64,000 nucleotides of DNA from Sphyrna mokarran (Eukaryota). A program made the position numbers. Below, one piece after another: positions 39,101-42,100 of the stretch (position 1 is the stretch's first letter; each line of letters opens with the position of its first letter). The stretch lies in contig JAGIQG010000008.1 in the NCBI GenBank assembly GCA_024679065.1, forward strand, positions 95,728,001-95,792,000, given 5' to 3'.

Positions 39101-42100
39101 TACCACGGAACACTCTAGATAGTTGAACATTGCCAAACCATATGTCCCTCATGGAAAAGTTTGTGTTGACTTTGACCACAAGCCTATCAGGCTCCATGGA
39201 AAAAGCTTACAGTGGATCCTGGTGGATGGTTCCCTACTGTCAAAATCAGTTGGCAGAATGCCTCATTACCAGAACTTTCAAGCAAGCACCAAGACATAGT
39301 TTGGTTGTTGGTGAGGAGGGCACTCCCCTTTAGATCCTTCATATACTCTCATTTCTCACTTAATTTTAAATTTTTAATTTAATTTTCAAAAATTCTTACT
39401 CCATTTTTAAAGTTACAGACCCAGTGCTTTGGGCCGAGTGGACCAGGCAGATCTGAGTCTTTCTCTTTGCTTGCTCCATAAACCAAATTCACATTGAATC
39501 TAATTCATGGTCCACACAAGGGAGATAAATAAGATCCAAGCTGACAAGAAATGACATTGCATTTGCTCTTGGGTTTAATCTTAGCCAAAAGGCTCTCATT
39601 TCTCACTGCTGGTACCTACCCAGTGACCCCTGCTGGACAATTTACATCTGGACACTGAATGAAAAGAGGATCAGGTTCAGTGATACTTCTTATGATCAAA
39701 CAGCCTACCATTATTCACGTATTCAGTGAAATAATTGAGATTGACTAGTTTCTAAAAAATTAAACTTCTTCTCGAGTTATTTATGGAAGTGGAAAGGAGT
39801 TGTCATTCAATTGTCATCTAGTAGAACCAGAACATGAGAATGTTCTCTTGGGCGTAATTTGTGTCACACTCACGGTAGTTACCATAACTCACTCATGACT
39901 CTGTTTCTTAATGAGTTATCAGATTTACCATCTGTAAGATACATTCACCATCCTTGGATGTCATATTGCACTAGACTTCCTGAGAAATATTTTTCCAATG
40001 ACCAGGAATTTGTAAGGCATGAAATGCATCTGGTTTATAAGATCATTTGTGTTGTCACCTGCTTACTTGATACCAATATGCAAAAAGCAAAATCCGGTTG
40101 AACCAAAATAATCCAATGTTGCACCAATATGCTTTTTGTCTGATATACTTAACTGATCATCTGAAATTACTCCAATCTCCAAGAACTGACCTATATCCAT
40201 TAGTATTGTACCCTGGAGCTAAAGAGCCCCATCCGTTTCTTTCCAAATGCTAGAAGAGCAAAATTTATAATTACAGTACCACCGAGGATTTCGCAATTCA
40301 AATGAAAATCCTGTGGAAAATCCTCTGCAACTATCATTATGCTTTGCTAAAATCCCAATGACAGCAATGATCACTATATTTCATTCTGCTAGATTCTCGG
40401 ATCAAAAAGCTAATCAGGACAGTGAAAGACTTATTCCCTGTCAGGAAAAAAATGGTTTTCACCACTGTCTCTTAACACCAACAGATAATATTTGGCAGGG
40501 ATGAATTCTATGAGCAACAAAAAAAACCAGAGGCTACTCGTTGCTATAAATCACTGGTTGGAGTCTTTACCAGTTTAAAAAATCCCCAACTCAAAATAAA
40601 CATTCAGTCCAGTTAATAGTGACCACAACTTTCAGTCTGTAAACTATATCTTTGGTCCCTATGTTATGGAATTGACCTCAGGTGTGCAATAATACCCACC
40701 GACCAGCCTGCAAATCAAGGTATTATATAACACACTCCGAATCATTCTGCAACCACTAGCTGCAGAACCCACTTGGCAGTGAGAACCCTCAAATGTAGTC
40801 AATAGCTGGGTAATACATATCGTGCCCTTCGATGAACTCAATATATTCTATTGGATTACAGATTAAATAAGGCATAAGTGTTAAATGCTACCTAAACACG
40901 GCAGGTTTTTTTTAAGTGCAGCTGTATCACTGTGTGCACAAGGTGCAGCCTTGGGATCTGTCTGTTAATTACTATTGAACTCTCTGAGGATTATGGAAGC
41001 ATATTTGCATCATGTCAAGAATACACACACATATAGAAAATCATCTTCAGAAATGGGCACTCTCTCCCTAGAGTGCAAATAATTAAACATTATTCCGTTT
41101 GTGCACCTAATGTTTTTGCTTATGATTAGTCTTCTGTTACAAACTTGAGCATTGCATGTTTAATAAGAAATATGATTTGTCAGCAAATAATTACTTCCAC
41201 ATGCTAATGAAGTCAAGGTTGCTCTAACTGTATTTCAACTGTTTAACAAAAATGTCAAACCATTAAGTAGAATAGAAGCAACTTGAGTTACATATAACTG
41301 ATGATTGCTTTTGATTACAGTCTAGCAATAAGTCTTGTAGGTTTGATCGTATCGTTAGGCGTCAGAGCGTTTTCACATTAAGAGAAAAAATCTTTACAAA
41401 AAAAGGCAAGTAACTGATGCTGTTCCTAAAATACAATATTAATATTATGAACTTTGATACGTCTTTAAATACGAGTCACAAAATACATATGTTTTTAGCC
41501 GAATCTTCTGGCAAAAGTGAATCAAATTATTTGTTATCAACTCCTAAGATATTTGCATCTTTGATGGGGTCGGTTTGAATTCGGTCTAGGTGCACTTTTC
41601 CAAACTTATGACCCGGTACTAGGGAAGGCAACAGGGGAGAGCCGCTTTGACTATTTCCCTACCACACACAGGGGAGTGTTTTCAACAGCTCTGCTGCCTG
41701 CTACTTCTCCCAGACTTGCTGCTTCTGATGCTTCGCAGAATGAACGGATCGGTGGCGTGGAGTAAAACTGAATCTTGGCACAACAAAAATCACACCCTTC
41801 TCCTCAGCATTCAGCAAGTCCAGAAGGAATGGGAAATCGCCGAAGATTCACCAACTCTCCCTTAATAAAGATCGCACCAGCATTAGATAAGAGTGCAGGG
41901 TTTTTTTGTGTTTTTATTCTTTTTTTAAAAAAAAATCAAGTAATAGTGTATTCGTGTATTTTTCTAAGGGGGCGGGGGACAAATGCAACTTTGTATTCCA
42001 ACAATATTTTTGCATGCACGGTGATGGAACTTGGGTTGGCCCAGCTTTGTATTTGGGTCTCGGACGATGCGAGGCTAAATTGCAGTGAACGGCACGAGGT

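What the first reader, a model, noticed from the sequence alone, without database searches (positions are those of the whole stretch)
39346..39607. U2 snRNA-headed short retroposon with a perfect 15-bp target-site duplication (copy A)
Seen: a 232-bp insert between two exact copies of CTCTCATTTCTCACT. On the minus strand it starts GCCTTTTGGCTAAGAT, identical to U2 snRNA nt 12-27 (the first base overlaps the TSD), continues into a non-U2, non-tRNA body and ends in a degenerate A-rich tail. Known: long TSDs plus an A-tail are L1/Tx1-type TPRT signatures. U-snRNA-derived SINEs (SINEU) are described from crocodilians, and Tx1-clade Keno elements target U2 genes. Inference: this belongs to a U2-headed SINE-like family in a shark lineage, possibly undescribed.
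Basis: partly seen in the sequence, partly recalled or inferred. Interest (0 to 1): 0.8.

Follow-up and report, generated by a model that had tools for sequence, protein, structure and literature searches.

The report
Short retroposon capped by U2 snRNA piece
A 232-base non-coding mobile element that begins with a 16-base piece of the U2 spliceosomal RNA has jumped into an old LINE gene, resembling the rare snRNA-headed SINEU elements so far described only from crocodilians, but whether it belongs to a multi-copy family could not be tested here.

Summary
CTCTCATTTCTCACT occurs exactly twice in the window (39346-39360, 39593-39607; 0.01 expected) and brackets a 232-bp insert. On the minus strand the insert starts (G)CCTTTTGGCTAAGAT. 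These letters equal positions 12-26 of the Rfam U2 consensus, as printed for a second locus. The insert ends in an A/T-rich tail that is not poly(A). It splits a decayed LINE ORF2 in its zinc-binding C-terminal region.

No tRNA or other Rfam family matches the body. The sense-strand RNA folds better than shuffles; the antisense strand does not.

A second, older locus (62347-62668, minus) carries the same 16-mer with the same 3' boundary and the same 12-mer TCAGCTTGGATC. Its body otherwise does not align significantly.

Best reading: a SINEU-like retroposon with a U2 stem-loop I head, moved by a LINE through target-primed reverse transcription. Copy number, partner LINE, host taxon and Repbase/Dfam status could not be tested. 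Family membership therefore rests on two loci only.

The parts
39361..39592 (-). Copy A: the 232-bp inserted retroposon. It is non-coding; the longest ATG ORF is 27 aa.
   Evidence: It lies between two exact copies of a 15-mer. Its body has no other copy in the window by blastn or nhmmer.
39593..39607 (+). Target-site duplication, the copy at the element's 5' side. Its base 39593 can also be read as the first G of the U2 head.
   Evidence: exact, 0.01 matches expected by chance.
39346..39360 (+). Target-site duplication, the copy at the element's 3' (tail) side.
   Evidence: The host reading frame runs on across the site once the insert and one copy are taken out.
39578..39593 (-). U2 snRNA head. 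It covers the loop and 3' arm of stem-loop I (Rfam U2 model positions 12-26, plus one T).
   Evidence: One search gives the consensus printed for the identical 16-mer at the second locus; the 16-mer occurs only at these two places, even allowing 3 mismatches.
39533..39544 (-). The 12-mer TCAGCTTGGATC, shared with the second locus in the same order and strand. In the predicted fold it pairs back to the 3' part of the head.
39476..39510 (-). A 16-bp hairpin with 4 G.U pairs. It is stable only on the sense (minus) strand.
   Evidence: (minus strand, z -3.29, 0 of 200 shuffles fold as well) against (plus strand, z -0.80, 37 of 200).
39361..39414 (-). A/T-rich 3' tail: 54% A and 89% A+T over 54 nt. 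ATTAAA words lie 13-18 and 18-23 nt before the 3' end. There is no homopolymer A run.
37715..39760 (+). Host of copy A: a decayed non-LTR retrotransposon ORF2 (reverse transcriptase and zinc-binding C-terminal region). The outer limits are approximate.
   Evidence: the RT piece 37978-38187 finds 15 proteins at E<=0.001; 7 of the 11 scanned carry RVT_1, and P0003 also matches zf-RVT just below its cut-off; the left flank aligns to P0003 224-253 (15/30 identities, E 0.012).
62347..62555 (-). Second locus, unit Y (209 bp). It has the same 16-mer head (62540-62555), a non-U2 body and an A-rich tail, with AATAAA 26-31 nt before the 3' end.
62570..62652 (-). Second locus, unit X: about 83 bp of non-LINE sequence 5' of unit Y. 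It is either a 5' extension of Y or a separate tandem insert.
   Evidence: this stretch does not align to the in-window LINE copies, while the control does (0 of 500 shuffles reach it); no Rfam U2 hit.
62653..62668 (-). Probable old target-site duplication of the second locus, 5' copy (AATGATACGGCATTTG). The 3' copy is at 62331-62346 (AATGGTAGGGCATTGG, 13 of 16 equal). A possible third, shortened copy lies at 62556-62569, between X and Y.
   Evidence: both flanks map to the same codons of a CR1-like LINE (aa 208-227 and aa 232-333 of the copy at 59000-60400). Sequences read.

Best explanation
Copy A is a complete and fairly young insertion of a short, non-coding, non-autonomous retroposon. Its 5' end is a captured piece of U2 snRNA stem-loop I, the same build as SINEU-1J.

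Shown:
- The insert lies between perfect 15-bp duplications, so it entered through staggered nicks 15 bp apart.
- The A/T-rich end abuts the nick on the window's + strand, where a pyrimidine-rich run is followed by G (TCTCACT/G). This is what an AP-endonuclease-type LINE does in target-primed reverse transcription.
- The element interrupts a LINE ORF2, and the host frame closes again when the insert is removed.
- The sense RNA is well folded; the antisense strand is not.

Inferred:
- An ancestor gained the head when the reverse transcriptase, on reaching the 5' end of its template, switched to a U2 snRNA. That chimera then became a source copy.
- The element is moved in trans by an L1- or Tx1-type LINE.
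- It is transcribed by RNA polymerase II or by read-through from flanking DNA, not by polymerase III. The evidence is a T4 run inside the head, no tRNA, 5S or 7SL match, and ATTAAA/AATAAA words near the 3' ends.
- The second locus in the window is an older relative that shares the head and its boundary.
For: - The duplication is exact and unexpected by chance.
- The head equals Rfam U2 consensus positions 12-26. It sits at the very 5' terminus.
- The host is a LINE ORF2, split inside its zf-RVT-like region.
- Folding is strand-specific: z -3.29 on the minus strand against -0.80 on the plus strand.
- There is no pol III-type head, and T4/T5 runs lie in the sense strand.

Evidence for a family:
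- The same 16-mer recurs at 62540-62555, and there too it stops being U2 after ...AAGAT.
- The 12-mer TCAGCTTGGATC occurs only in these two elements, downstream of the head in both.
- A shared word of 12 nt or more turns up in only 24 of 3000 random window segments and 17 of 3000 shuffles.
- The two are each other's best non-self nhmmer hit on that strand: E 0.15 and 0.3, weak.
- There is a 13/15 word AGATTAAACCCAAGA / AGATCAAGCCCAAGA.
- The second locus also sits inside a LINE, between duplicated codons of about 16 bp.
- Two such loci in 64 kb suggest many copies in the genome (inference).

Architecture, duplication length and the template-switch origin match what PMC4494074 describes for SINEU (Results and Discussion read).
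Against: - The two bodies do not align significantly overall: 190 of 1000 shuffles reach the semi-global score, and 20 of 1000 reach the local score.
- Apart from the 12-mer, the MAFFT alignment of the first 75-90 nt is near random.
- Past its first ~67 nt, the body of copy A has no other copy in the window.
- The shared words appear in a different order in the two loci.
- The tail is not poly(A), whereas all SINEU families are reported with poly(A) tails.
- No partner LINE with a matching 3' end is in the window.
- At the second locus the head may be internal, about 97 nt from the start of the insert, rather than terminal. This depends on whether the middle repeat copy is real.
- Rfam supports only 15-20 nt of U2, at 18.8 bits (gathering score 46).
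- The host taxon is unverified.
Confidence: 0.6

Rival explanations
1. One-off chimeric retrocopy. A LINE reverse transcriptase copied some cellular or repeat-derived RNA and, near its 5' end, switched template to a U2 snRNA. The product was inserted once and never acted as a source copy.
For: The body is single-copy in the window beyond ~67 nt. The bodies of the two loci are not significantly alignable. Chimeras of snRNA with other retrocopies made by template switch are known from L1 (Discussion of PMC4494074, read).
Against: Two independent events would have to stop in U2 at the same base (...AAGAT) and also share an exact 12-mer 33-44 nt further on. The tail is not the poly(A) of an mRNA retrocopy. 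The sense RNA is strongly structured.
Confidence: 0.15
2. Non-autonomous LINE. It would be an internally deleted derivative of an L1/Tx1-type LINE that itself carries a U2-derived 5' end, as Tx1-11_Crp does in crocodiles. The body would then be LINE 5' UTR joined to 3' UTR rather than a SINE-like unit.
For: PMC4494074 (Results, read) reports Tx1 families with U1 or U2 heads. A LINE with a zf-RVT-like C-terminal region exists in this genome, as the host of copy A. The 15-bp duplication and the nick context fit AP-endonuclease LINEs.
Against: No LINE in the window shares the head, body or tail of copy A. The host LINE's own sequence downstream of the site shows no similarity to the tail. Nothing else bears on it; it is untested rather than contradicted.
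Confidence: 0.15
3. The whole element derives from U2. It would be a retrocopy of a strongly diverged U2 variant, or a SINEU-3-like derivative, in which only stem-loop I stayed recognisable.
For: From recall only: parts of the body seemed collinear with later U2 regions at roughly 60-65% identity. No call shows this, because no U2 sequence was available from a tool. The length before the tail (~180 nt) is close to that of U2.
Against: The Rfam U2 covariance model finds nothing in copy A at E<=10, even in 88- and 108-nt searches. At the second locus it finds only positions 7-26. The perfect duplication means the divergence cannot be decay after insertion.
Confidence: 0.07
4. Not an element: a chance direct repeat together with a chance U2-like word.
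For: None beyond the short length of the U2 match.
Against: A 15-mer pair is expected 0.01 times. A 15-nt match to one RNA, placed exactly at the end of the insert, is far below chance. The insert breaks a LINE reading frame that continues on the other side.
Confidence: 0.01

Closest known systems
SINEU-1J and the other SINEU-1 subfamilies of crocodilians (Kojima 2015, PMC4494074)
   Same: A short U2-derived sequence at the 5' terminus, on a body with no known source. The element is short and non-coding, has target-site duplications, and has no polymerase III promoter but an oligo-T inside. The head is explained by template switch onto U2.
   Different: Presumably a different host lineage (unverified). 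The tail is A/T-rich rather than poly(A). No sequence comparison with the SINEU consensus was possible. No Mariner target: both loci here lie inside LINE ORFs. Copy number is unknown.
SINEU-3 of crocodilians
   Same: A 16-bp target-site duplication against 15 bp here. Tandem insertions sandwiching a duplication copy are described for SINEU-3, and that is one reading of the second locus (62347-62668).
   Different: SINEU-3 is two U2 fragments (32 + 83 bp) plus ~40 bp. Here only 15-20 nt are demonstrably U2.
snRNA chimeric retrocopies made by L1 template switching (U6, U1 or U2 joined to L1, Alu or mRNA), as summarised in the Discussion of PMC4494074
   Same: snRNA sequence at the 5' end of a retrocopy flanked by target-site duplications. 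The same proposed step, in which the reverse transcriptase jumps to an snRNA.
   Different: Those are independent single events with poly(A) tails and variable junctions. Here two loci share the junction and a downstream 12-mer, and there is no poly(A).
Keno (Tx1 clade) and Utopia, LINEs that target U2 genes (PMC4640811, passages read)
   Same: A link between LINE machinery and U2 sequence.
   Different: Those elements insert into U2 genes with the 3' junction at U2 nt 38/39. Copy A lies in a LINE ORF, is 232 bp without an ORF, and its U2 piece ends about 12 nt earlier.

Membership tests
SINEU (snRNA-headed SINEs) | The 5' region is derived from U1 or U2 snRNA. | tested here: met
   Rfam U2 model positions 7-26 on the second locus, 19 of 20 letters. 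Copy A carries the identical 16-mer at its terminus. The match is short: 18.8 bits against a gathering score of 46.
SINEU (snRNA-headed SINEs) | A short (<500 bp), non-coding retroposon flanked by target-site duplications. | tested here: met
   232 bp, longest ATG ORF 27 aa. Exact 15-bp duplication.
SINEU (snRNA-headed SINEs) | A 3' poly(A) tail. | tested here: inconclusive
   the last 30 nt are 57% A and 97% A+T, with no A run longer than 5.
SINEU (snRNA-headed SINEs) | A multi-copy family descended from source copies, not a sum of independent chimeras. | tested here: inconclusive
   Two loci in the window share the head, its boundary and a 12-mer. The bodies are otherwise not alignable. Genome-wide copy number could not be tested with these tools.
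SINEU (snRNA-headed SINEs) | Sequence similarity to the SINEU-1, -2 or -3 consensus sequences. | not testable with these tools
   No Repbase or Dfam was available. Figures and supplements of PMC4494074 were not seen.
SINEU (snRNA-headed SINEs) | Mobilised by Tx1-clade LINEs, shown by a shared target preference. | not testable with these tools
   Only two target sites are known, both in LINE ORFs. The clade of the host LINE is unresolved, because the names of the hit proteins could not be fetched.
Classical SINE (polymerase III type) | A head derived from tRNA, 7SL or 5S RNA with an internal promoter. | tested here: not met
   ARAGORN found 0 genes. No Rfam hit. A T4 run lies at positions 4-7 of the element.
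U2 snRNA gene or plain U2 retropseudogene | Similarity to U2 along its whole length. | tested here: not met
   0 hits at gathering score. No U2 hit over the body of copy A at E<=10.
Keno/Tx1 insertion in a U2 gene | Flanked by U2 gene sequence, with the junction at nt 38/39. | tested here: not met
   The flanks are LINE ORF2. The U2 piece ends at about nt 27. The junction position comes from passages of PMC4640811.

The most novel reading that the evidence does not exclude
Cartilaginous fishes may carry an abundant, long-lived superfamily of structured, polymerase II-dependent retroposons. These would have arisen independently of crocodilian SINEU and would always be capped by the same slice of U2 stem-loop I. 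The fixed boundary of the slice would mean one of two things. Either the LINE reverse transcriptase switches onto U2 at a defined site, or the hairpin is kept because it helps the RNA, for example by protecting the 5' end or by access to snRNP or nuclear pathways. snRNA capping would then be a recurrent route to making SINE-like elements in vertebrates.
Probability: 0.2. Interest if true: 0.65.

Novelty: new member of a known kind. Interest (0 to 1): 0.45.

Why it matters
In the paper I read (PMC4494074), SINEs with snRNA heads are reported from crocodilians only. My five literature searches found no report from any other group. Repbase Reports and Dfam could not be searched.

A second, independent lineage would show that capture of U2 by a LINE reverse transcriptase is a repeatable way to found short retroposons that lack a polymerase III promoter. 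It would also give a young copy, with a perfect duplication, for asking how such elements are transcribed and recognised. On a practical level, such copies can be mis-annotated as U2 fragments or as unknown repeats in shark assemblies.

Tried and rejected
- **Rfam.** The whole window at gathering score gave nothing. Four evalue-mode searches over copy A gave no U2, only weak chance matches to miRNA, lncRNA and similar models. The stretch 5' of the second head gave no U2 hit.
- **More copies in the window.** blastn and nhmmer with both elements found none.
- **First search for a duplication at the second locus.** Exact or near-exact words found none. The diverged 13/16 pair was found later by mapping the flanks onto other LINE copies.
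- **Second head as part of the host LINE.** I considered that this head is merely diverged sequence of its host LINE. The stretch 62330-62671 does not align to three LINE references, while the control does, so I rejected this.
- **Pfam on the flanks of copy A.** Reading the flanks with X at stops gave 0 families. Stop-free pieces gave only chance-level hits.
- **Word-based protein search** with the host RT piece gave none.
- **Names of the HMMER hits** could not be fetched, because the database was switched off. The LINE clade (L1 or Tx1) therefore stays open.
- **Scan of bacterial and archaeal genome contigs** for the head plus the 12-mer gave 0, as expected, and is uninformative.
- **A two-sequence covariance model** was not built, because the alignment is too poor.
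- **A weak HoxA13_N Pfam match** at 20102-20485 was looked at and dismissed as spurious.

Not checked at all: the closed collections metagenome contigs and viral contigs, any eukaryote genome, Dfam and Repbase, and the supplements and figures of the papers.

Full report
**The observation.** The 15-mer CTCTCATTTCTCACT lies at 39346-39360 and 39593-39607. It occurs nowhere else in the window on either strand, even with one mismatch. The chance expectation is 0.01, and 0 of 100 shuffles gave two matches. A repeat survey of the whole window lists it as one of only three exact, non-simple direct pairs of 15 nt or more within 600 bp. The 232 bp between the copies read, on the minus strand, from CCTTTTGGCTAAGAT... 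to ...AAATTAAAAATTTAAAATTA. The last G of the upstream duplication can equally be the first base of the head.

**Is the head U2?** The window has no Rfam hit at gathering score. Copy A gives no U2 hit in evalue mode, because it carries only the loop and 3' arm of the hairpin. The identical 16-mer occurs once more, at 62540-62555. There, Rfam's U2 model aligns 62541-62560 to model positions 7-26, which is stem-loop I. The alignment has 19 of 20 consensus letters, 18.8 bits and E 0.077 in a 281-nt search, well below the gathering score of 46. Copy A therefore starts at model position 12 and matches through position 26. A 15-nt match placed exactly at the end of an insert is not chance.

**The rest of copy A.**
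- ARAGORN finds no tRNA in the window.
- No Rfam family matches, including U2, in searches cut down to 88 and 108 nt.
- The longest ATG ORF is 27 aa.
- The last 30 nt are 17 A, 12 T, 1 G and 0 C, with two ATTAAA words starting 18 and 23 nt before the 3' end. Because the duplication is still perfect, this is the element's own A/T-rich end and not a decayed poly(A).
- T4 and T5 runs lie in the sense strand, one of them inside the head. In PMC4494074 (Discussion read) this is used as an argument against polymerase III transcription of SINEU.
- The minus-strand RNA folds at -63 kcal/mol, z -3.29, and 0 of 200 shuffles fold as well. The plus strand gives z -0.80, with 37 of 200 shuffles as good. 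The difference comes largely from a 16-bp hairpin with four G.U pairs at 39476-39510. The structure belongs to the strand that carries the U2 sense.

**The insertion site.** The flanks look like a decayed LINE ORF2 on the plus strand. Pfam saw nothing in the flanks read through with X, and a word-based protein search found nothing. An exhaustive HMMER search with the stop-free piece 37978-38187 found 15 proteins at E<=0.001. I scanned 11 of them, leaving out P0001, P0006, P0011 and P0013. Seven carry RVT_1 at E<=0.001, five of these above the curated cut-off. P0003 also matches zf-RVT at 25.2 bits, against a cut-off of 27.5. The left flank of copy A aligns to P0003 224-253 (15 of 30 identical, E 0.012). 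That is the start of the zinc-binding region, and the right flank continues in the same frame. So the element split a LINE ORF2 in antisense orientation, and removing the insert with one repeat copy restores the frame. The LINE's clade (L1 or Tx1) is open, because the names of the hits could not be fetched.

**The second locus.** Besides the head, the two loci share the following.
- An exact 12-mer, TCAGCTTGGATC, found nowhere else in the window. It lies 33 nt (A) and 44 nt (B) after the head, on the same strand.
- GCAAATG just after the head.
- A 13/15 word.

A shared word of 12 nt or more is seen in 24 of 3000 random window segments and 17 of 3000 shuffles. By nhmmer each is the other's best hit on that strand apart from itself, at E 0.15 and 0.3.

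Against a simple family: the bodies give a semi-global score reached by 190 of 1000 shuffles and a local score reached by 20 of 1000. The MAFFT alignment of the 5' parts is near random outside the 12-mer. The shared words are not all in the same order.

The second locus is also an insertion into a LINE.
- 62725-62666 encodes NKCKVMHFGELNQGRTYLVN. This matches two other CR1-like copies in the window (E 0.002 and 0.009).
- The LINE resumes at 62340.
- The roughly 320 bp between is not LINE-like, although the control alignment is clear.
- The two edges repeat the same codons: AATGATACGGCATTTG and AATGGTAGGGCATTGG, 13 of 16 equal.

I read this as an old duplication of about 16 bp. A shortened third copy (AAAGCGGCATCTTG, 62556-62569) directly precedes the head. 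If it is real, the locus holds two tandem inserts sandwiching a duplication copy, and unit Y starts at the same U2 position as copy A. PMC4494074 describes the same arrangement for SINEU-3. If it is not real, the head is internal, behind a 5' extension of about 97 nt. I cannot decide between these. Its head forms an 11-bp hairpin.

**How it most likely works.** The anatomy is that of target-primed reverse transcription by an AP-endonuclease LINE.
- The nicks are staggered 15 bp apart.
- The first nick comes after a pyrimidine-rich run followed by a purine (TCTCACT/G at copy A, ATCATT/A at the second locus).
- The element's 3' end lies at that nick.

That the head came from a template switch onto U2 in an ancestor, that the chimera became a source copy, and that transcription is by polymerase II or read-through, are all inferences. 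They follow the reasoning given for SINEU in PMC4494074.

A direct origin from a Keno insertion in a U2 gene is unlikely. Passages of PMC4640811 place the Keno/Utopia junction at U2 nt 38/39, about 12 nt beyond the end of both heads here.

From recall, parts of copy A's body seemed collinear with later parts of U2. No tool supplied a U2 sequence, so I left that comparison out. The Rfam model does not support it.

**Comparison and novelty.** The closest known kind is SINEU, especially SINEU-1J, which has a short U2 head on an unrelated body. Of its defining features, the head, the size and the duplications are met. The poly(A) tail and multi-copy status are inconclusive. Consensus similarity and Tx1 dependence are untestable here.

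PMC4494074 states that no SINEU was found outside crocodilians. A 2017 review mentions them only for crocodilians (PMC5381603, passages). Five full-text searches turned up no report from cartilaginous fishes or elsewhere. Repbase Reports, Dfam and the closed collections were not searchable.

I could not verify that the window comes from a shark. My only hint is that the LINE families look elasmobranch-like, which is recall.

I file copy A as a probable new member of a known kind, of moderate interest. The decisive test, copy number in the source genome, remains open.

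Noticed in passing
window 62347-62668 (minus strand): The second U2-headed locus looks like two tandem inserts (about 83 bp and 209 bp) inside a CR1-like LINE, with up to three copies of the same target sequence. Alternatively it is one ~306-bp insert with an internal head. Its head hairpin is lengthened to 11 bp compared with the Rfam U2 stem.
   Followed up: partly
window 22909-23180: An exact 16-bp direct repeat, TGAGTGGAATCTTGTG, brackets 240 bp that have no A-rich end and no U2 word. 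It overlaps a 179-aa open frame on the minus strand (22970-23509) that has no Pfam match. The nature of the unit is unknown.
   Followed up: partly
window 26478-27231: A tandem duplication with a period of about 529 bp: 167 nt at 79% identity, 31 nt at 90% and an exact 17-mer (families D5, D7 and D10).
   Followed up: no
window 15377-16032 (+), 59098-59699 (-), 61640-62340 (-): Three decayed copies of one CR1-like LINE family. They share motifs such as [10 protein letters not shown] and ERVQKRF. The copy at 61640 ends in a short repeated TGACTCTA-type 3' end.
   Followed up: partly
window 46857-48570, 47336-47963 and 52330-52384: A G-rich tract about 1.7 kb long, with (CA)n-like microsatellites within it (47336-47963) and at 52330-52384 (families D1-D4).
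   Followed up: no
protein P0001: A 2495-aa library protein matches the 70-aa RT piece of the host LINE in 25 separate stretches (E 7e-40). This suggests a tandemly repeated RT fragment in some predicted protein.
   Followed up: no
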